IMG/VR virus record: IMGVR_UViG_3300018065_000012
Origin: a virus
Taxonomy: Duplodnaviria > Heunggongvirae > Uroviricota > Caudoviricetes
Length of the DNA: 64,000 bases
Direction: 5' to 3' (one strand)
Position numbers and translations under genes: made by a program. Numbering within the stretch: the stretch's first letter is position 1; each line of letters begins with the position of its first letter. Under the pieces are notes generated by a model. It made no database searches. It was given only the letters and a program-made list of their open reading frames with translations, and was not told the DNA's origin. This document shows, one piece after another, positions 14,466 to 55,402 of this stretch.

Positions 14466-14641
14466 CGAGCGGAACGAAGAAGCCAAGAAACATCGTGGAC
14501 ATGATTTGATAAAATTGCGCTCGCATACGACTCGTCATAGAACAGCTGGTGAATACGAAATAGGCACTTTTATTTGCATGGATTGCGATGTCCAATTCAA
14601 AGCCTACATCTGGCCCGAAAGTTGATCAAAATGGGCCTAAA

Positions 14642-14785
14642 ATGAGCGCTACGGACGTGTTTGCGATGCGTCTCAAGATTTGCAAGCGTTGCGATAAGCA
14701 AGATTGTACCAAAGGAGCGTTTGGAGCGCCACCGCCAAACGATTGCCCTTTTTCGCTGGAACATCTTGTTCATGGACAGAAATAA
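14642..14785 (+). CDS. CPF-LEH family small Cys-rich protein (short member)
   Basis: RLKICKRCDKQDC ... PNDCPFSLEHLVHGQK. Confidence 0.4.
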   Translation: MSATDVFAMRLKICKRCDKQDCTKGAFGAPPPNDCPFSLEHLVHGQK

Positions 14786-15310: not shown

Positions 15311-15535
15311 ATGCTGAGCAAAAAGATTTGCCGACAATGCCATAAAGAACATTCCAGTTGGACTGAGCATGCTGATGAACCTCACTGGAACAATGGATGG
15401 GTTTTTTGCGTCTACAAGCAGCTTGAATCATACCGTTCAAATCCGATGTTCATTCCTTTTCTGCCCATAACAGCCAATCCGCCAGAAGAATGTCCTTTTT
15501 ACTTGGAGCACTTTCTCAGTGACTCAAGTGTTTGA
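15311..15535 (+). CDS. CPF-LEH family small Cys-rich protein
   Basis: MLSKKICRQC ... PPEECPFYLEHFL. Confidence 0.5.
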   Translation: MLSKKICRQCHKEHSSWTEHADEPHWNNGWVFCVYKQLESYRSNPMFIPFLPITANPPEECPFYLEHFLSDSSV

Positions 15536-38030: not shown

Positions 38031-38070
38031 CCTCCCGTTTGTATAATATATGAGCGGGAGGTTTTGTTTT
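38031..38070 (+). terminator. hairpin CCTCCCG-N17-CGGGAGG followed by TTTTGTTTT, with a TTGTATAAT motif in the loop
   Basis: Rho-independent terminator-like structure 20 nt after the stop of gene 37735-38010; the T-run overlaps the TTG start at 38069. Confidence 0.4.
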
Positions 38071-38308
38071 GCTGACCAAGCGGATTTGCAAACGTTGTAG
38101 TACAGAAACATTGTGGGCGAAGGAGCGAAGTTACGTTTGGACAGATGAGGATGAATCGTTTTGGGAAGGTGATAAAACGGTTCGGTGTCCTTATGCTAAT
38201 TCTGACCCTTCTTCTCCGCTTTGGGAATCAATATCCATTGAGAAGTCTCCACCAAAAGAATGTCCTTTTTCTTTGGAACACTTAATGGAGGAGCGACGTG
38301 GCGAATAA
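38069..38308 (+). CDS. CPF-LEH family small Cys-rich protein (TTG start)
   Basis: LLTKRICKRCS ... PPKECPFSLEHLMEER. Confidence 0.45.
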   Translation: MLTKRICKRCSTETLWAKERSYVWTDEDESFWEGDKTVRCPYANSDPSSPLWESISIEKSPPKECPFSLEHLMEERRGE

Positions 38309-39861: not shown

Positions 39862-40205
39862 AAACTAAGAAACGAAAACGTAAGAGGGGTTCAAAAACAG
39901 AGTGCAAAAAATGCGGACGTTGCTGTTACTTCAAAACGACAGTAAATGGCGTTCGAGTATTCACAAACAAATCATGCCTCTATCTTAATCGCGATACAAA
40001 CCTTTGCACAGTGTATCCAAACCGATTCCGCGCTGGAGTTGGCTGTTTACCGATAAAGGAAGCAATTGAGAATTTTGGCGTGCCGAAGGATTGTGCGTTT
40101 GTTTCTCATTTGCCCCATTACAAAGGAGTAATTACGGCAAAGGAAGCTTTTGAAAAAGGCTTGATTGATGAAAGTGATTATCGCAGGCTCGCGGAATTGC
40201 CTTGA
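39858..40205 (+). CDS. YkgJ-family (CxxCxxCC) cysteine-cluster protein
   Basis: ECKKCGRCCYF ... SCLYLNRDTNLCTVYPNRFRAGVGCL matches the PF03692-type zinc/iron-chelating motif. Confidence 0.45.
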   Translation: MKTKKRKRKRGSKTECKKCGRCCYFKTTVNGVRVFTNKSCLYLNRDTNLCTVYPNRFRAGVGCLPIKEAIENFGVPKDCAFVSHLPHYKGVITAKEAFEKGLIDESDYRRLAELP

Positions 40206-40518
40206 TTATGAATTGCTCTGTGAAGCGATCAAAGAGTCAAAGTTTGAAATTACAGAAGTGGTTAGTGGTTGTGCCGCTGGAGCGGATACAATGGGGATTC
40301 GGTGGGCTGTGGAAAACAAGATTCCAGTTAAGAAATTTCCCGCTGAATGGTCGAAGTATGGAAAGCAAGCAGGTATGATACGTAATCGAGAAATGGCGTG
40401 GTATGGAGATGCCTTGATTGCGATTCATCTTTCGGGTTCTCGTGGAACTGCTGATATGATAAGGGTTGCGAAAAAGCAAGGGTTGAAACGGTATGTGAAA
40501 GAAATGAAGATTTCATGA
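40168..40518 (+). CDS. SLOG/DUF2493-like Rossmann-fold protein (DprA/LOG-related)
   Basis: MKVIIAGSRNC ... VVSGCAAGADTMGIRWA ... GMIRNREM ... HLSGSRGTADMIRVA pattern. Confidence 0.45.
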   Translation: MKVIIAGSRNCLDYELLCEAIKESKFEITEVVSGCAAGADTMGIRWAVENKIPVKKFPAEWSKYGKQAGMIRNREMAWYGDALIAIHLSGSRGTADMIRVAKKQGLKRYVKEMKIS

Positions 40519-41288: not shown

Positions 41289-41463
41289 CGCTTATTGCCG
41301 CCTTTGCGACCCTTACAATCGGACGGAAAAAAGTGCGTTGAAAAGAGGAACTCGTGCGGTACAAATTGAAATGCTGCATTCTGGTGGCCTTGCAAGTTCA
41401 ATGATTTGTTTTAAGTGCGCAAGCGCAGTGCATGGCGAATTGAACGAAGTGGTTGGCGATTAA
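41257..41463 (+). CDS. small Cys-containing hypothetical protein
   Basis: ORF overlapping neighbours; weak. Confidence 0.25.
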   Translation: MFKTVLVNASNAYCRLCDPYNRTEKSALKRGTRAVQIEMLHSGGLASSMICFKCASAVHGELNEVVGD

Positions 41464-41464
41464 A

Positions 41465-41680
41465 ATGACATTGGTCAAACGGATTTGTCAAAGATGTACG
41501 ATGAATGTCCTCGGTAATGAATGGTCTGAGGCTGACCACGAGTTTTTTGATGAAAACAAAGAAGCTTGGTGCGATGTATGTGAGTTTTGGGTATCAACGA
41601 AAGAGGCTCCTCCGCAGAAATGTCCTTTTACCCTTGAGCACTTGATGGAGTCGCAAAAATGCAAGCCAAAGAGAAAATAA
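41465..41680 (+). CDS. CPF-LEH family small Cys-rich protein
   Basis: MTLVKRICQRCT ... PPQKCPFTLEHLMESQK. Confidence 0.45.
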   Translation: MTLVKRICQRCTMNVLGNEWSEADHEFFDENKEAWCDVCEFWVSTKEAPPQKCPFTLEHLMESQKCKPKRK

Positions 41681-42254: not shown

Positions 42255-42425
42255 ATGAAATTTGACGCAACTGTTGAGTGGGTAATGGCTGTTCGGCTTA
42301 AAGTCGAAGCGGAAAGCGAAGACGAAGCCAGAGAACAGCTTTCAGTAGAGAGCGGTTTGCCAAAAAATGGAGAGTACATCCCCGGTAGTTTTAGAGTGAC
42401 ATTTATAGAGCCGGAGGGTTAATCA
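42255..42425 (+). CDS. small hypothetical protein (56 aa)
   Basis: ORF below the track threshold; RBS AGGAAGGGGAACGTAATG. Confidence 0.3.
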
Positions 42426-46150: not shown

Positions 46151-46705
46151 ATGGAAAAGGCAGAAGTTTGTCCTCATTGTAAATATTCGAAGCTTATTGT
46201 TCACGACAGTGATACAAAGATAACTTGTCAGCTTGAGCAAGGCCGAGAATGCCCATACCATTTGGAGCATACAGTTGTCGGTAACAAGGACAAACGATTG
46301 TACATTTACAACATTGGATACGGTACATGTGAAGAGTCAGCAGATTGGCAGTATATGCATGAAGAAAAATTCACCGACGAGCAATTGTTTGATATCATGG
46401 AAGATTGCTTGTTCATTGCTTTGAAAAACACAAGAAAACCCAATTCAGAATATGAGCATTCACAACACCCTTCTTTTCAAGACTTGATGAGCAGTTGGAA
46501 GGATGATGGGATTTTTCATAAAGAACTTAAAAAAAGAGGCTTTCAACATATTGAGTTTACAGGGGGTTTTGATATATTTGGTTGGGCGAAATCAGACGTG
46601 CCAGATGATTGGGACGGTCATACAGGGCCAGAAACCAAAAAGCTTCAAAAGAATTTGAAACGACGTTTGGAAGAGCAGGATGCCGCTGAGCAAAAAAGTT
46701 TGTAG
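46151..46705 (+). CDS. protein with N-terminal short CPF-LEH-like module and 140-aa C-terminal domain
   Basis: EVCPHCKYSK ... GRECPYHLEHTVVGNKD at the N-terminus. Confidence 0.4.
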   Translation: MEKAEVCPHCKYSKLIVHDSDTKITCQLEQGRECPYHLEHTVVGNKDKRLYIYNIGYGTCEESADWQYMHEEKFTDEQLFDIMEDCLFIALKNTRKPNSEYEHSQHPSFQDLMSSWKDDGIFHKELKKRGFQHIEFTGGFDIFGWAKSDVPDDWDGHTGPETKKLQKNLKRRLEEQDAAEQKSL

Positions 46706-46952
46706 TTGTTGCGAACATTGTGATGCGCCGTTTGATACGTTGCCATCTGATTTGATTCCATGTTCTTTAATTCGGACCGTTCAACTTGGAGTTACTATGG
46801 ATGGTGGCAAGCCCGTTTATTTAGATTCAACAACAGGCTATGTAAGATATGATGAAAAACGTTTGAGCATTGACGATGATGTTCCAGAAGAATGTCCTTT
46901 TCATCTTGAACATTTAATGGAAACACAAAATGAAGACAAAGGAACTAATTGA
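46680..46952 (+). CDS. CPF-LEH family small Cys-rich protein
   Basis: MPLSKKVCSCCEH ... PEECPFHLEHLMETQN. Confidence 0.45.
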   Translation: MPLSKKVCSCCEHCDAPFDTLPSDLIPCSLIRTVQLGVTMDGGKPVYLDSTTGYVRYDEKRLSIDDDVPEECPFHLEHLMETQNEDKGTN

Positions 46953-48597: not shown

Positions 48598-49089
48598 ATG
48601 GAAAAGATTTTTGGGAAATATAAAACATTAGTCATAGCCCTTATGTTTGTTGGTATTGGAATAGGAATAGGAGAAAAGTGGCAAGAGCATTCTGCAAAAA
48701 AGAGCGCCCCCAAAGGTCTTTCCAGAAGTCTTTCCGGCGAAGCGTATAGCTGTAAATACAGAGCGTTGATCGTCAGCGTCTATGACGGCGACACAGTGAC
48801 GGCCAATTTTGACCTTGGGCTGGACGTTCATATTGACAAGCAGAAGGTGCGCTTGTATGGAATCAATACGCCAGAGTTACGCGGGGAAGAAAAAGAACAA
48901 GGCATTGTATCACGCGACAAGTTGCGGGAACTGATTTTGAATCATTGGGTGATCATTCACGTTCCAAATAATAAACGCGGAAAGTACGGAAGGTGGCTTG
49001 GAATCATTTACAAAGACGAAGCGGGAACGTTGGTAAACATCAACGATTACCTTTTGGAAAATGGTTATGCGAAGGTGTATGAAGAATGA
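48598..49089 (+). CDS. staphylococcal-nuclease (SNase/thermonuclease)-like protein with N-terminal hydrophobic segment
   Basis: VSVYDGDTVTANF ... VRLYGINTPEL ... matches the SNase signature V.DGDT ... VRL.GIDAPE. N-terminal TM/signal LVIALMFVGIGIGIG. Confidence 0.65.
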   Translation: MEKIFGKYKTLVIALMFVGIGIGIGEKWQEHSAKKSAPKGLSRSLSGEAYSCKYRALIVSVYDGDTVTANFDLGLDVHIDKQKVRLYGINTPELRGEEKEQGIVSRDKLRELILNHWVIIHVPNNKRGKYGRWLGIIYKDEAGTLVNINDYLLENGYAKVYEE

Positions 49090-49532
49090 ATTTCCGAGGG
49101 GAGTATGAATTCTTGAGCAACTTTTCTTCATCACCCATCGCTTACGATGGGTGTTTGTTTCCTACTGTGGAACATGCTTTTCAATATGCAAAAGTTGAAG
49201 GGCCAGTTTGGAAAAAGATGATAAAGGAAGCAGAGACTCCCGGTAGGGCAAAAAAAATTGGCCGCAGAGGTAAGATGATTGCCGATTGGGATAGCAAGAA
49301 ATTTGGCGTCATGTTGACGCTTTTGAACTTGAAGTTCGCCGATGATGAACTCAAAGAGCAACTTTTGGAGACGGAACTTCAAAATCTTGTTGAAACCAAT
49401 ACGTGGCATGATCGCACGTGGGGTGTATGTTGTTGTGATAAATGTGGCGGGAAAGGGGAGAATATGCTCGGAAAATTGTTGATGCAAGTCCGAGATAGGT
49501 TGAGAAGGGAGAGAAGTGGAGCCGTCGAATGA
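49086..49532 (+). CDS. NADAR (DUF1768, YbiA-like) domain protein
   Basis: MNFRGEYEFLSNFSSSPIAYDGCLFPTVEHAFQYAK matches the conserved NADAR N-terminus (FRGEY.FLSNF ... FPT.EH.FQ). Confidence 0.65.
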   Translation: MNFRGEYEFLSNFSSSPIAYDGCLFPTVEHAFQYAKVEGPVWKKMIKEAETPGRAKKIGRRGKMIADWDSKKFGVMLTLLNLKFADDELKEQLLETELQNLVETNTWHDRTWGVCCCDKCGGKGENMLGKLLMQVRDRLRRERSGAVE

Positions 49533-49768
49533 ACAAGGAAGAATTTGTAGAGAAGCACGGAGAAGAAGCTTTGTCTTTTGTTAATCCGAACATGAATGCG
49601 TTTATGCAAAAGCATTTTAGCGCAGTGGTAGCAGATGCAACAGAATATGACATCATTGATCATGACGTTATTGGACGCGTCCTTGGGCTGATTGGGTTCA
49701 AGAATAGCAGTTTGCTGGAGGCAAAAAAGTTTATTCAGAAACACGTTCCAAAAGAGTTTTTGAAATGA
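49529..49768 (+). CDS. hypothetical protein
   Basis: ATGA overlap. Confidence 0.35.
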   Translation: MNKEEFVEKHGEEALSFVNPNMNAFMQKHFSAVVADATEYDIIDHDVIGRVLGLIGFKNSSLLEAKKFIQKHVPKEFLK

Positions 49769-50253
49769 AGCGGTTGCATTACACAAACAAGCGGTTTGAG
49801 CGGCTTATTAACCGAAGAAAGACCAATTTGCGGCCAGACGACAAGCCGCAAGGTCTTTGGTATAGCGTTGGTAACGCTTGGGTCGATTGGTGCGTTGGAG
49901 AAACATTTGATGGCCTTGGGCGTTGGCAATATGAACTTGAAGTTGACTTTTCCAAAATGCTTGTTCTGAGTACAATAAAAGCTATTCGGGATTTCACGAA
50001 AGAGTATGGCGTCAAAGAGCGTTATGAAGCGGGTTTCAAAAGCGGTCCGTTTAAGCTTGATTGGCCCAAGATCAAAAAGTTGTATTCAGGCGTTGAGATC
50101 AATCCGTATCAATGGAAACTTCGGCATGATAAACGTTTCCGGTGGTACTACAGCTGGGACGTGGCGTCAGATTGTATTTGGAAGTCAAACGCATTGATCG
50201 GTTGGAAAGAAAGCGAATATGTTGAACAAAAGCATTTGTATAAAGTGTCGTAA
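49765..50253 (+). CDS. hypothetical protein
   Basis: ATGA overlap. Confidence 0.4.
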   Translation: MKRLHYTNKRFERLINRRKTNLRPDDKPQGLWYSVGNAWVDWCVGETFDGLGRWQYELEVDFSKMLVLSTIKAIRDFTKEYGVKERYEAGFKSGPFKLDWPKIKKLYSGVEINPYQWKLRHDKRFRWYYSWDVASDCIWKSNALIGWKESEYVEQKHLYKVS

Positions 50254-50488
50254 TAGTCCAGACATGTTTCACAGATGGGATGACAGTATCTCGACGAACA
50301 AGGATAAGTTTGCAGATTTGATCGCCAGAGATGATAGCTGGCATGATGATGAAGCGATTTGGGAAATAAGGAAACGGGTTTGGTGTCCTTATAAGCCACC
50401 GACAATAAATGAACCTCATTTGTCTATATATTCTGAACCGCCAAAGAATTGTCCTTTCGTTTTGGAACACTTGGTGAGCAAATGTTGA
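50219..50488 (+). CDS. CPF-LEH family small Cys-rich protein
   Basis: MLNKSICIKCRNS ... PPKNCPFVLEHLVSKC. Confidence 0.45.
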   Translation: MLNKSICIKCRNSPDMFHRWDDSISTNKDKFADLIARDDSWHDDEAIWEIRKRVWCPYKPPTINEPHLSIYSEPPKNCPFVLEHLVSKC

Positions 50489-50712
50489 ATAAAGCCGTTT
50501 GCAAAAGATGTTATAAGAAATATGGCGTCAATTGGACCGGCAAAGAAGGAAGTGCTTTTTGGGCGAACGAAGCTTGGGAAAAGGGGTTTGTACGTTGTCC
50601 TAAAAGGGCTGTCGAAGGCGTCTCGCGGCTTGTTACTGTCAGCAAGCATTTTATCGACGCGACGCCCAACCATTGTCCCTTTATACTTGAGCATACTGTG
50701 AGCAAGAAATGA
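50482..50712 (+). CDS. CPF-LEH family small Cys-rich protein
   Basis: MLNKAVCKRCYKK ... TPNHCPFILEHTVSKK. Confidence 0.45.
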   Translation: MLNKAVCKRCYKKYGVNWTGKEGSAFWANEAWEKGFVRCPKRAVEGVSRLVTVSKHFIDATPNHCPFILEHTVSKK

Positions 50713-51505: not shown

Positions 51506-51786
51506 TAAAGCAATTTGAAGCGCCAGATGATAGTTGGGAGTTTTGGCTTGTTGGTAATAAGGGAGTAAGACAACTTGTTGATCTCAAATCAACATTGATT
51601 TGTACGAAGGAAGATAAAAGTTGGTATTGGTATGGCGGAGAAAATCCACCGCATTGGGGTGCTCATTCTGGAAATTCTGTGTGCGGGGGAGGTTACGAAG
51701 AAGTGAATGTTATTTCAAGAGACAATGCGCTCAAGCTTTTGAAAGAGCAAGAGTCACGGAGAACAAATGCTTTGTCCAGTGTGTAA
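51502..51786 (+). CDS. hypothetical protein
   Basis: ATGA overlap. Confidence 0.35.
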   Translation: MIKQFEAPDDSWEFWLVGNKGVRQLVDLKSTLICTKEDKSWYWYGGENPPHWGAHSGNSVCGGGYEEVNVISRDNALKLLKEQESRRTNALSSV

Positions 51787-52582
51787 AACTAAATTGACTT
51801 GTACGGGTCAAGCAAAATTGGAAACGCTTGATGAGCATATCTTTTGCGAAACGCCGTCGCTAAAGGACAAGTTTGAATGCTTGAACGCAAATTGCTCAAC
51901 TTACAACCATGTATACTGGAATAAAATGGGCGAGTATTACAACAGCGACAATGATTACAAAAAAGAGTTTGGCTTCATTGGTGGAAATTCCGCGCCACTT
52001 GGAACGTTTCAGCGTCAACTAAATGTTGAGATCGAGAAAAAGGATGAAAATTATACGCTGTTTGAAACCAAGAAGTGGCGATTCAGAATTGTATTCAAAT
52101 ACAAAGCGGACCGGAATGGAAAGGTTTTGAAGCGCTGGAGGAAGCTTGAGATTTGGAAGCGCAAATGCGGTGAGGAACTTTGGACGTTGCATATTCCCGG
52201 CATCAAGATGTTGATATACAAAATTGGGGAGATAAACAGACTGTTCAGAAATTTCAACGCGAGTCATCATCCCGGAACGCGAGAGAAATTGATATTGGCG
52301 GGTGTTTCAGAAAAGGGCGAAGAGTGGTGGCGCAGGTTGGGTGCGAAATATGCCCGATGGAGGATTGTTTTTGGGATGCGACAGGTGTTGAGCGAGAGAG
52401 TATGTAAGCAATGCAAACATTGTAAAGACACTTATGATTCCGGGCGATTTTGGAGTGTGAATTGTAACGTGAGCAGCGTATTTCAACCAACACAGTATGA
52501 CTGTCATGTAATGCCGCATGATTGTCCTTTCCGTTTGGAACACTTGATGGATTTGCAAGATGTCAAAACCGTTAAAGCGTGA
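51767..52582 (+). CDS. 271-aa protein with C-terminal CPF-LEH module
   Basis: N-terminal CPVCKTKLTC zinc-ribbon-like; C-terminal RVCKQCKHCKD ... PHDCPFRLEHLMDLQD. Confidence 0.4.
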   Translation: MLCPVCKTKLTCTGQAKLETLDEHIFCETPSLKDKFECLNANCSTYNHVYWNKMGEYYNSDNDYKKEFGFIGGNSAPLGTFQRQLNVEIEKKDENYTLFETKKWRFRIVFKYKADRNGKVLKRWRKLEIWKRKCGEELWTLHIPGIKMLIYKIGEINRLFRNFNASHHPGTREKLILAGVSEKGEEWWRRLGAKYARWRIVFGMRQVLSERVCKQCKHCKDTYDSGRFWSVNCNVSSVFQPTQYDCHVMPHDCPFRLEHLMDLQDVKTVKA

Positions 52583-52775
52583 CATAGAAATCTGCAATCA
52601 TTGCAGAAGCTTTGAGAGAAGATCACTTTGCAATTTCTCGGAAGAGTTGGAGAGAAAAATCATTGTGAACGCTTGTGAAATCGAAGTGGATTCTATTGCG
52701 GTGATGACGCATAGAATAAAAGTTCCAGACAGCTGCCCTTTTCTCTTGGAGCATGTAGTGAAAAATGCTGAATAA
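52560..52775 (+). CDS. CPF-LEH family small Cys-rich protein
   Basis: IEICNHCRSF ... PDSCPFLLEHVVKNAE. Confidence 0.4.
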   Translation: MSKPLKRDIEICNHCRSFERRSLCNFSEELERKIIVNACEIEVDSIAVMTHRIKVPDSCPFLLEHVVKNAE

Positions 52776-54548: not shown

Positions 54549-54891
54549 AAATTGTTCTCGCAATATTGAAACAGAAAAGATGGATCATTATTACACTTCT
54601 GGCTACTATTGTTCAAACAAATGTTGGGAAACATTGCTCAGAGTTTGTGTCAATTGTGGAAAACAAGATTTGGAAGTTAGGAGCAATGATAACTGTTGTG
54701 ACGCGCCCGTATGTCGCGAGTGCTTTTTCAAATTGATTTGTAACAAATTGCCGCCTATAAAAGATTGGGATAGATTCAGAAACAAATACGATTGGAGCGT
54801 CTATCCATACTATTTTGAATATTTCATTGACAAGGAGAACAAATACCGTGGACGTGACTTTCAGGCGGTTACAGATTCCAGACGTGATTGA
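54532..54891 (+). CDS. Cys-rich hypothetical protein
   Basis: MIVKCKNCSRN ... CVNCGKQ ... CRECFFK. Confidence 0.35.
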   Translation: MIVKCKNCSRNIETEKMDHYYTSGYYCSNKCWETLLRVCVNCGKQDLEVRSNDNCCDAPVCRECFFKLICNKLPPIKDWDRFRNKYDWSVYPYYFEYFIDKENKYRGRDFQAVTDSRRD

Positions 54892-55402
54892 AGTCGAGCC
54901 AAGTGTTCATCTGGATACAAGAGGGCACTTTCAAGAGTTTTATCATAAGGAAAAATATTTTGATGGCGGAATCACTTGCGAGTTTGTTCAAGACAATACA
55001 TCTGTTACAGCGCAATATGTTTTGAGAGGAATGCATTACCAATTGAACAATCCGCAAGCAAAATTGGTTTCAGTGCTTCATGGAAAAGTGTTTGATGTAG
55101 CATTGGACATCCGCAGAGCATCGCCAACGTTTGGGCAAGCCGTTGGCGCGACGCTTTCTGCTTCTGGCGCGAAGCAATTGTTCATTCCAGAAGGGTTTGC
55201 GCACGGTTTTTACGTTATATCAAAATGGGCGTTGTTCTTTTACAAATGTTCTGCATTGTATGATCCAGCTGATGATCGTGGTGTTCATTGGGCCAGTGTG
55301 AACATTTGGGATTTTCAAAAGGAAGGCGACCCGTTGCTTTCTGAAAAAGACAACGGACTACCATTGTTGAATCAAACGCCAATGATTGATCTTCCAGAAT
55401 GA
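54848..55402 (+). CDS. rmlC: dTDP-4-dehydrorhamnose 3,5-epimerase (RmlC-like cupin)
   Basis: RGHFQEFYHKEKYF ... QDNTSVTAQYVLRGMHYQ ... GKVFDVALDIRRASPTFGQ ... IPEGFAHGF matches RmlC active-site regions. GTG start inferred. Confidence 0.65.
   Translation: MDVTFRRLQIPDVIEVEPSVHLDTRGHFQEFYHKEKYFDGGITCEFVQDNTSVTAQYVLRGMHYQLNNPQAKLVSVLHGKVFDVALDIRRASPTFGQAVGATLSASGAKQLFIPEGFAHGFYVISKWALFFYKCSALYDPADDRGVHWASVNIWDFQKEGDPLLSEKDNGLPLLNQTPMIDLPE

What the first reader, a model, noticed from the sequence alone, without database searches (positions are those of the whole stretch)
48598..49532. Adjacent SNase-like nuclease and NADAR-domain genes: candidate counter-defence pair
- A membrane-anchored or secreted staphylococcal-nuclease homolog is immediately followed by a NADAR (YbiA-like) protein.
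- NADAR enzymes are established to remove ADP-ribose from guanine bases, reversing DarT-type toxin modification.
- Phage-encoded nucleases commonly degrade host DNA.
- In a mobile-element context this pair is a plausible anti-defence or host-takeover module.
Basis: partly seen in the sequence, partly recalled or inferred. Interest (0 to 1): 0.5.

Follow-up and report, generated by a model that had tools for sequence, protein, structure and literature searches.

The report
Unlinked phage nuclease and NADAR genes
Two neighbouring genes in an uncultured giant phage really do encode a staphylococcal-type nuclease with a membrane anchor or export signal and a NADAR ADP-ribose-removing enzyme, but they sit together by chance of gene shuffling and are not a conserved two-gene module; the NADAR alone resembles known phage anti-DarT enzymes.

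Summary
Observation confirmed. ORF 48598-49089 is an SNase-fold nuclease (Pfam E 5e-9; Foldseek top hits staphylococcal nuclease). It has an N-terminal hydrophobic segment. ORF 49086-49532 is a NADAR (Pfam E 6e-27; AF2 pLDDT 96.5; best folds YbiA and Phytophthora NADAR), and every catalytic residue is present.

The "pair" reading is not supported.
- None of 80 viral NADAR loci has an SNase within 5 kb, and none of 80 viral SNase loci has a NADAR.
- The syntenic sister phage has the SNase ortholog followed by a 49-aa ORF and the same 79-aa gene, with no NADAR.
- The closest NADAR (60% identity) lies in an unrelated neighbourhood.
- The 4-nt overlap is the norm here (35 of 135 junctions).

The NADAR is a YbiA-core, Glu-type enzyme. 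It is 45% identical to the T5-like NADAR of phage Bas32, which has been shown experimentally to neutralise DarT1. It is therefore a plausible orphan-antitoxin counter-defence gene of an already described kind.

The nuclease is probably exported or signal-anchored (Nuc2-like), which argues against host-chromosome degradation.

Minor new points: a covarying His/Cys3 knuckle in this NADAR subclade, and a 20-copy CPFxLEH zinc-finger-like family around the pair. Overall this is ordinary.

The parts
48598..49089 (+). Gene for a 163-aa SNase-fold nuclease carrying an N-terminal signal/anchor
   Evidence: Pfam PF00565 and phrog_452. AF2 plus Foldseek give staphylococcal nuclease. GGAG RBS 8 nt upstream of the ATG.
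48625..48675 (+). Codons 10-26: hydrophobic segment, either a signal-anchor or a Sec signal h-region
   Evidence: KD-17 peak of 2.04. Among 120 homologs only this protein and its ortholog P0122 (KD-17 2.52) have such a segment. Their sequences differ but the hydrophobicity is kept (alignment).
48745..49086 (+). SNase catalytic core (residues 50-163), a short form lacking the C-terminal helix of S. aureus nuclease
   Evidence: D65, R85, E93, Y130 and R132 correspond to SNase D21, R35, E43, Y85 and R87 (alignment). The D40 position is N90, which is Asn in 91 and Asp in 25 of 120 homologs.
49086..49532 (+). Gene for a 148-aa stand-alone NADAR (YbiA-like core, Glu type)
   Evidence: PF08719. phmmer to YbiA 2b3w E 5e-16 and to 8bau E 3e-7. 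AF2 pLDDT 96.5. Foldseek TM 0.82 and 0.81. Catalytic E29, K36, E103, D109 and W112.
49407..49445 (+). Codons 108-120: H108-x6-C115-x-C117-x2-C120, a putative zinc knuckle next to catalytic D109/W112
   Evidence: The CxCxxC/H insert occurs only together with His or Cys at position 108: 31 strict plus at least 3 C-x-C-x2-H variants, against 0 among 82 sequences with another residue at 108. The metal has not been tested.
49529..49768 (+). 79-aa gene of unknown function, the conserved downstream neighbour of the SNase rather than of the NADAR
   Evidence: 50% identical homolog downstream of the SNase ortholog in L093-L096. Absent from 80 other SNase loci. No Pfam, PHROG or NCBIfam hit.

Best explanation
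These are two independently inherited accessory genes in a densely packed, fast-shuffling region of an uncultured jumbo phage (338 kb or more). They are not a functional unit.

(1) The NADAR
- It is a stand-alone, YbiA-core, Glu-type ADP-ribosyl N-glycohydrolase.
- Most likely it acts as an orphan-antitoxin-like counter-defence enzyme. It would strip ADP-ribose from guanine (possibly also cytosine) in phage DNA that a host DarT1-like or pierisin-like ADP-ribosyltransferase has modified, so that replication can resume.
- Shown: the fold, the family, the complete catalytic set and the phage context.
- Inferred: the substrate and the anti-defence role, by homology to NADAR-Bas32 and from the in-vitro activity of all NADAR subtypes tested in the literature.
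- The gene arrived as a cassette exactly between the SNase stop codon and the 79-aa gene.

(2) The SNase
- It is a short-form, Ca2+-type staphylococcal nuclease with an intact active site, fused to an N-terminal signal/anchor.
- Most likely it is exported, and then either tethered to the outer face of the cytoplasmic membrane (Nuc2-like) or released.
- There it would digest extracellular or periplasmic nucleic acid rather than the host chromosome. Candidate targets are DNA released at lysis, eDNA matrix, or incoming foreign DNA.
- Shown: the fold, the catalytic residues and the hydrophobic segment kept in the ortholog.
- Inferred: the topology and the target.
For: Domains, folds and residues.

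No linkage:
- 0 of 80 NADAR loci (768 kb) have an SNase and 0 of 80 SNase loci (696 kb) have a NADAR within 5 kb. This holds even at E<=10, with an HMM that still detects T4 gp30.3.
- The sister phage L093-L096 shares at least 7 syntenic genes with the window and has SNase, then a 49-aa ORF, then the 79-aa gene. The breakpoint is at the conserved SNase end TATGAAGAATGA.
- The nearest NADAR (P0002, 60% identity) shares no neighbour with the window.
- 35 of 135 junctions overlap by exactly 4 nt and 95 of 135 overlap.
- Cultured-phage hosts of the two families barely overlap.

NADAR function:
- 45% identity to the Bas32-type NADAR.
- Bas32 NADAR neutralises DarT1 (PMC11257639).
- All NADAR subtypes hydrolyse G-ADPr in vitro (PMC11125620), and YbiA types also hydrolyse C-ADPr (PMC12945103).
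- No ART, macro or riboflavin gene was found among the 111 window ORFs scanned.

SNase export: a signal-anchored SNase precedent exists in Nuc2 (PMC3994088).
Against: - No experiment exists on this protein or on its Zn-knuckle subclade.
- T4 gp30.3 and YbiA hydrolyse G-ADPr in vitro yet fail to rescue DarT1 toxicity in cells (PMC11125620), so homology does not guarantee anti-DarT1 function.
- The host, and whether it carries DarT1, are unknown.
- Iyer et al. (PMC9503650) argue that most phage NADARs act on soluble ADPr derivatives. This phage also encodes a SLOG/YAcAr and a Nudix protein.
- The SNase topology is not decided by charge bias: the flanks carry similar net charge on my own reading of the sequence.
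- AF2 gives low confidence for residues 1-48.
- Only 5-6 kb either side of each relative was examined, so genome-level co-occurrence was not tested.
Confidence: 0.62

Rival explanations
1. One reading: SNase and NADAR form a co-functional counter-defence or host-takeover module. The nuclease attacks host DNA, or excises damaged DNA, while the NADAR repairs ADP-ribosylated phage DNA.
For: The genes are adjacent, on the same strand, with a 4-nt overlap that allows translational coupling. Both act on nucleic acids. Both sit in a region of small accessory genes.
Against: Adjacency is unique to this one phage: 0 of 160 related loci, and it is absent in the syntenic sister phage and in the nearest NADAR relative. 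Overlapping junctions are the rule here. The nuclease carries an export/anchor segment, which predicts a different compartment from the DNA-repairing NADAR.
Confidence: 0.08
2. The NADAR works on low-molecular-weight ADP-ribose derivatives, such as cADPR-type immune signals or NAD breakdown products. It would act together with the phage's SLOG/YAcAr and Nudix proteins and blunt NAD/ADPr-based immunity, rather than repairing DNA.
For: The window encodes a YAcAr/SLOG protein (40165-40518) and a Nudix hydrolase (35569-36003). NADAR-YAcAr fusion proteins exist among close homologs (P0101, P0104). Iyer et al. propose this division of labour, and statistical co-occurrence of NADAR, SLOG and Nudix in DNA viruses (PMC9503650).
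Against: No NADAR has yet been shown to process such signals. Every biochemical test so far shows nucleobase-ADPr hydrolysis (PMC11543638, PMC11125620, PMC12945103, PMC11257639). The three genes lie 9-13 kb apart here.
Confidence: 0.2
3. The NADAR is a metabolic YbiA-type N-glycosidase that clears reactive riboflavin-pathway intermediates, that is, an auxiliary metabolic gene.
For: The best PDB sequence and fold match is E. coli YbiA. It passes NCBIfam TIGR02464. It carries the YbiA-family hallmark Glu (E103; PMC11543638).
Against: No riboflavin genes were found in the 64-kb window. TIGR02464 is a domain-level model. The protein is closer to the Bas32 anti-DarT1 NADAR (45%) than to YbiA (37%). 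YbiA itself hydrolyses G- and C-ADPr (PMC11125620, PMC12945103).
Confidence: 0.05

Closest known systems
NADAR of phage Bas32 (IrisVonRoten) and other T5-like Markadamsvirinae: a non-T4 phage 'AdfN-like' orphan antitoxin (PMC11257639)
   Same: A stand-alone phage protein of about 148 aa. 45% identity over 143 residues. The same Glu-type active site. No DarT partner.
   Different: Bas32 has Gly at position 108 and no Cys insert, whereas the window protein carries an H-C-C-C knuckle. The genomic neighbourhoods differ: nucleotide-metabolism genes in the T5-like phage. No functional data exist for the window protein.
E. coli YbiA (PDB 2b3w) and Phytophthora NADAR (8bau)
   Same: The same core fold (TM 0.82 and 0.81). 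E, K, E, D and W catalytic/ligand residues are conserved. There is no N-terminal DNA-binding extension.
   Different: Phage context. No LexA or riboflavin operon. Pn Y84 is Ile here. The Cys knuckle is absent from both structures' sequences as aligned.
DarG1 (DarT1-linked NADAR, BC4488 subfamily) and T4 AdfN (gp30.3)
   Same: The same superfamily. E29 and K36 equivalents are present in T4 gp30.3. The presumed reaction is the same.
   Different: DarG1 has Asp, and T4-type proteins have His, at the E103 position (PMC11543638). DarG1 also has an N-terminal beta-beta-alpha extension and an adjacent DarT1. None of these is present here. T4 gp30.3 aligns only over the N-terminal half (21 bits).
S. 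aureus Nuc2 (signal-anchored surface thermonuclease; PMC3994088) and Nuc
   Same: The architecture is an N-terminal hydrophobic anchor followed by an SNase domain. The catalytic D, R, E and R residues are conserved.
   Different: Only about 26% identity. A short core without the C-terminal helix. Asn at the D40 Ca2+-ligand position. Encoded by a phage. The topology is untested.
Short about 110-aa SNase 'endonuclease' of T4-like cyanophages and marine viruses (phrog_452)
   Same: 50-62% identity in the core, with the same N/D40 variation.
   Different: Those proteins lack the N-terminal extension of about 50 aa. Only the window protein and P0122 have it.

Membership tests
NADAR superfamily (PF08719) | Profile match above the curated threshold | tested here: met
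   95.4 bits against a cut-off of 35.1.
NADAR superfamily (PF08719) | Alpha-helical core fold shared with YbiA and Pn NADAR | tested here: met
   AF2 pLDDT 96.5. Foldseek TM 0.82 (2b3w) and 0.81 (8bau).
NADAR superfamily (PF08719) | Catalytic Glu and Lys (C7 E88/K95 = Pn E43/K50) | tested here: met
   E29 and K36 are present and invariant in 120 of 120 homologs.
YbiA subfamily of NADAR | Conserved Glu at Pn E125, with a core fold lacking any extension | tested here: met
   E103 is Glu in 117 of 120 homologs. The 148-aa protein starts at the core.
YbiA subfamily of NADAR | Riboflavin or housekeeping genomic context | tested here: not met
   Phage window. No rib genes among 111 ORFs scanned.
DarG1 / BC4488 (DarT1-associated NADAR antitoxin) | Asp at the C7 D171 position | tested here: not met
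   The residue is Glu (E103) (PMC11543638).
DarG1 / BC4488 (DarT1-associated NADAR antitoxin) | N-terminal beta1-beta2-alpha1 DNA-binding extension | tested here: not met
   No residues precede the YbiA core. G. lovleyi NADAR is not among the sequence or fold hits.
DarG1 / BC4488 (DarT1-associated NADAR antitoxin) | Adjacent DarT1 toxin gene | tested here: not met
   The neighbours are the SNase and a 79-aa ORF. No ART family is present in the window.
Phage anti-DarTG1 NADAR (AdfN sensu lato) | Phage-encoded orphan NADAR with intact catalytic residues | tested here: met
Phage anti-DarTG1 NADAR (AdfN sensu lato) | Rescues a phage or cell from DarT1 | not testable with these tools
   There is only homology: 45% to the Bas32-type protein that does this (PMC11257639).
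Staphylococcal nuclease family (PF00565) | Profile match and OB-fold | tested here: met
   37 bits against a cut-off of 21. Foldseek prob 1.0 to SNase structures.
Staphylococcal nuclease family (PF00565) | Catalytic and Ca2+ residues D21, R35, E43, R87 | tested here: met
   D65, R85, E93 and R132 are invariant in the alignment.
Staphylococcal nuclease family (PF00565) | Second Ca2+ ligand D40 | tested here: inconclusive
   Asn here (N90). Asn in 91 and Asp in 25 of 120 homologs, so it is a subfamily norm. The effect on metal binding is unknown.
Signal-anchored surface SNase (Nuc2-like) | N-terminal hydrophobic anchor | tested here: met
   KD-17 of 2.04 at residues 10-26, conserved as a property in the ortholog P0122.
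Signal-anchored surface SNase (Nuc2-like) | Catalytic domain outside the cytoplasm | not testable with these tools
   No topology predictor or experiment was available. The charge bias is ambiguous.
Two-gene counter-defence module (operon-level unit) | Adjacency conserved across independent lineages | tested here: not met
   0 of 80 plus 0 of 80 loci. The sister phage and the nearest NADAR relative both lack it.

The most novel reading that the evidence does not exclude
The His/Cys3-knuckle NADAR subclade, found here and in about 30% of the closest 120 homologs, may be a metal-stabilised variant with a distinct substrate range. Candidates are ADP-ribosylated bases in hypermodified or glycosylated phage DNA, or a non-guanine adduct. 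In this phage lineage it may also have been recruited next to an exported nuclease because both are expressed in the same early window. That would define a new specificity class of phage anti-ADP-ribosylation enzymes.
Probability: 0.1. Interest if true: 0.5.

Novelty: new member of a known kind. Interest (0 to 1): 0.2.

Why it matters
It adds one more jumbo-phage example to the recently described class of orphan NADAR 'antitoxin-like' counter-defence enzymes. It also shows, with comparative data, that gene adjacency in tightly packed phage accessory regions should not be read as functional coupling. The Zn-knuckle NADAR variant and the anchored phage SNase are modest leads for biochemistry. 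Neither changes current understanding.

Tried and rejected
- blastn of 46-52 kb against 50,697 phage records gave no match, so no cultured relative is available.
- Promoter scan: not above chance (27 against 23.3 +/- 4.2).
- The terminator-like hairpin inside the NADAR 5' end (49132-49153; -15.2 kcal/mol, z -4.6) is not conserved in the 60% relative. It is unexceptional against 60 other NADAR genes (mean -9.5, minimum -24), so I treated it as incidental.
- TAG recoding, suggested by the CTA-anticodon tRNA, is not supported. The standard code gives 98.7% coding, and TAG ends 15 of 136 ORFs.
- I searched for a partner ART, macro or DarT gene in the window and found none.
- I tested the 79-aa downstream gene as a general SNase partner (possible inhibitor). 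It appears only in the sister phage, not in 80 other SNase loci.
- NCBIfam 'calcium-activated nuclease EcnA' gave a partial hit (42.8 bits against 180). Literature searches returned only the unrelated entericidin EcnA.
- Aligning T4 gp30.3 to check the His hallmark failed, because only the N-terminal half aligns. For that residue I relied on PMC11543638.
- A literature search for a zinc site in NADAR found nothing relevant.

Full report
**1. What is there**

The window is coded almost entirely on the + strand. It holds 136 non-nested ORFs covering 98.7% of the sequence. It has no nucleotide-level relative among 50,697 deposited phage genomes. The identical NADAR and SNase proteins occur on metagenomic contigs of up to 338,319 bp. 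The source is therefore an uncultured jumbo phage.

ORF 48598-49089 (163 aa):
- GGAG lies 8 nt before the ATG.
- It matches Pfam SNase (E 5.2e-9) and phrog_452 'endonuclease' (E 2.3e-26).

ORF 49086-49532 (148 aa):
- It overlaps the SNase gene by ATGA.
- It matches Pfam NADAR (E 5.7e-27) and phrog_1017 (E 1.4e-40).

**2. The NADAR**

Sequence, fold and active site:
- By sequence the closest solved structures are E. coli YbiA (2b3w, E 5e-16) and Phytophthora NADAR (8bau, E 3e-7).
- An AlphaFold2 model built on 28 homologs has pLDDT 96.5. It superposes on these two structures with TM 0.82 and 0.81, and nothing else in the PDB scores.
- I mapped the residues defined by Schuller et al. (PMC11543638) through the alignments:

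| Window residue | Equivalent | Note |
|---|---|---|
| E29 | C7 E88 / Pn E43 | |
| K36 | C7 K95 / Pn K50 | |
| K56 | Pn K75 | |
| R60 | Pn R79 | |
| D67 / W68 | Pn D86 / W89 | |
| E103 | Pn E125 | |
| D109 / W112 | Pn D130 / W133 | |
| I65 | Pn Y84 | the only contact not kept |

- E29, K36, E103, D109 and W112 are invariant in 117-120 of the 120 nearest homologs.

Subfamily placement:
- According to PMC11543638, Glu at the E125 position marks the YbiA subfamily, Asp marks the DarT1-linked BC4488 subfamily, and His marks the T4-type phage NADARs. This protein is therefore Glu-type.
- It lacks the N-terminal extension of DarG1.
- No ART or DarT gene sits next to it, and none was found among the 111 window ORFs scanned.
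- It passes NCBIfam TIGR02464 ('riboflavin biosynthesis intermediates N-glycosidase', 91 against 73.7 bits). That is a domain-level model, and no riboflavin genes are present.

Nearest characterised relative:
- Among cultured phages the best relatives are T5-like Salmonella and Escherichia phages.
- The window protein is 45% identical (E 2e-35) to the T5_ev212 protein.
- That protein is 99.3% identical to the one in phage IrisVonRoten, which is Bas32 (PMC8594841).
- NADAR-Bas32 neutralises DarT1 and restores plaquing of DarTG1-sensitive phages (PMC11257639).
- All NADAR subtypes tested hydrolyse guanine-ADPr in vitro (PMC11125620). YbiA types also remove cytidine-ADPr (PMC12945103).

The most likely function is therefore removal of ADP-ribose from bases of phage DNA, as an orphan-antitoxin-like counter-defence. 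This is an inference from homology. T4 gp30.3 and YbiA are active in vitro yet fail to rescue DarT1 toxicity in cells (PMC11125620), so in-vivo specificity cannot be assumed.

**3. The nuclease**

- The AF2 model is confident for residues 50-163 (pLDDT above 90) and poor for residues 1-48.
- Foldseek's top hits are staphylococcal nuclease structures and SND1 SN domains (prob 1.0).
- Alignment with S. aureus nuclease gives D65 = D21, R85 = R35, E93 = E43, Y130 = Y85 and R132 = R87. All are invariant among homologs.
- The second Ca2+ ligand D40 is Asn here. Asn is the majority state in this subfamily: 91 Asn against 25 Asp of 120.
- Homologs are mostly core-only proteins of about 110 aa from T4-like cyanophages and marine viruses.
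- Only the window protein and its ortholog P0122 carry an N-terminal extension of about 50 aa with a strongly hydrophobic stretch (KD-17 2.04 and 2.52). Hydrophobicity is conserved there but sequence is not.
- I therefore infer an exported or membrane-tethered nuclease acting outside the cytoplasm. This does not fit the 'degrades the host chromosome' idea. Topology is untested.

**4. Is it a pair?**

Four independent lines of evidence say no.

(a) *Related loci.*
- I fetched 80 viral loci around NADAR relatives (39-52% identity, 768 kb) and 80 around SNase relatives (696 kb).
- HMMs built from 120 homologs of each family found the partner family in none of them. Only the six loci of the same phage contain both.
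- Relaxing the threshold to E<=10 changes nothing.
- The NADAR HMM is sensitive enough to detect the very divergent T4 gp30.3.

(b) *The sister phage.*
- The SNase ortholog P0122 (62% identity) lies in loci L093-L096.
- These loci are syntenic with the window, with homologs of the window genes at 42425, 43959, 44416, 44930, 45710 and 49529.
- There the SNase is followed by a 49-aa ORF and then the 79-aa gene (50% identical), and there is no NADAR.
- The two arrangements diverge exactly after the shared SNase end ...TATGAAGAATGA.
- The NADAR is thus a cassette gained, or swapped, at that junction.

(c) *The nearest NADAR.* P0002 (60% identity; L007-L012) shares no other gene with the window within 6 kb on either side, and has no SNase.

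(d) *Spacing.* The 4-nt overlap is not informative. 35 of 135 junctions in the window have exactly this overlap and 95 of 135 overlap. Promoter-like sites are at chance level.

In addition, the cultured-phage hosts of the two families are almost disjoint: enterobacterial, Vibrio and Streptomyces phages for the NADAR against cyanophages, Flavobacterium and Staphylococcus phages for the SNase.

**5. Rivals**

- The main live alternative for the NADAR is action on soluble ADPr derivatives together with SLOG and Nudix proteins, as proposed by Iyer et al. (PMC9503650).
- The window does encode a Nudix hydrolase (35569-36003) and a YAcAr/SLOG protein (40165-40518). I identified the latter through the C-terminal domain of the NADAR-YAcAr fusions P0101 and P0104.
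- I give this alternative about 0.2, because every biochemical test of NADARs so far shows nucleobase-ADPr hydrolysis.
- A riboflavin-damage-control role gets 0.05.
- The original module hypothesis gets 0.08.

**6. Comparison and novelty**

- The NADAR is a new member of a known kind: phage orphan NADARs, non-T4 type, Bas32-like branch.
- Its only unusual feature is H108-x6-C115-x-C117-x2-C120, next to the catalytic D109/W112.
- In the 120 homologs the CxCxx(C/H) insert occurs only when position 108 is His or Cys: 31 strict cases plus at least 3 with a terminal His, and none among the 82 sequences with another residue at 108.
- That covariation suggests a small zinc site. I found no mention of one in the NADAR literature searched. 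It is untested.
- The anchored SNase is a new variant of a common phage nuclease.
- Overall the finding is ordinary. The proposed pairing is not supported.

Noticed in passing
window, 20 ORFs between 14.5 and 61.8 kb (e.g. 14588-14785, 15311-15535, 38069-38308, 41453-41680, 46680-46952, 50219-50488, 50449-50712, 51767-52582, 52560-52775): Twenty proteins (73-279 aa) end in a near-C-terminal motif (P)PxxCP[FY]xLEH, usually with an N-terminal MLxKxICxxC, which looks like a C2-C(H) zinc-binding module. The expected count by chance is 0.005. There is no Pfam or PHROG hit. Only 16 pattern matches, and 1 confirmed relative, exist in 2.9 million IMG/VR contigs, from the same sample set as the sister phage. 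Many copies also occur in L093. This is a lineage-specific, massively expanded small-protein family of unknown function that surrounds the SNase/NADAR pair.
   Followed up: partly
window 35505-35579 (+): A tRNA with anticodon CTA (amber suppressor, called tRNA-Pyl by ARAGORN) sits immediately upstream of the Nudix gene. There is no sign of TAG recoding in this window: 98.7% coding in the standard code, and TAG terminates 15 of 136 ORFs.
   Followed up: partly
window 30701-33307 (+): An 868-aa protein with Major Vault Protein shoulder (E 8e-22) and vault repeat domains, and no PHROG match. This is unusual for a phage.
   Followed up: no
window 35569-36003 and 40165-40518 (+): A Nudix hydrolase and a YAcAr/SLOG-family protein. 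Close NADAR homologs P0101 and P0104 are NADAR-YAcAr fusions. The phage therefore carries the NADAR + SLOG + Nudix trio discussed in PMC9503650, dispersed over 14 kb.
   Followed up: partly
window 49407-49445 (+), NADAR residues 108-120: An H-x6-C-x-C-x2-C insert beside the catalytic D109/W112. It covaries perfectly with His or Cys at position 108 across 120 homologs, and a few have C-x-C-x2-H. This is a putative zinc knuckle defining a NADAR subclade, and it is absent from the YbiA, Pn NADAR and Bas32 sequences.
   Followed up: partly
window 49132-49153 (+): A 9-bp GC-rich hairpin followed by UUUGUUU (-15.2 kcal/mol, z -4.6) lies inside the first 70 nt of the NADAR ORF. It is not conserved in the 60% relative and falls within the range seen in other NADAR genes, so it is probably incidental.
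   Followed up: yes
window 1-13 kb and 54-63 kb: A dense set of glycan or modification genes: several glycosyltransferases, three radical-SAM proteins (one with SPASM), TylF/FkbM-type methyltransferases, a PIG-L deacetylase, an RmlA-like nucleotidyltransferase and RmlC (54815-55402). There are also dUTPase/dCTP-deaminase-like and HD-domain proteins. This suggests virion or DNA glycosylation chemistry.
   Followed up: no
SNase residue C52 (window 48751-48753) and P0122: The two anchor-bearing SNases share an 'SCKY' motif with a Cys just before the catalytic core, where core-only homologs have 'YxYKA'. This could be a site for a disulfide in an oxidising compartment.
   Followed up: no
NADAR 49086-49532: A weak, sub-threshold similarity to NCBIfam NF053876 'NADAR family anti-phage protein' (55.9 bits against a cut-off of 240). 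NADAR domains are therefore also annotated on the defence side of the conflict.
   Followed up: no
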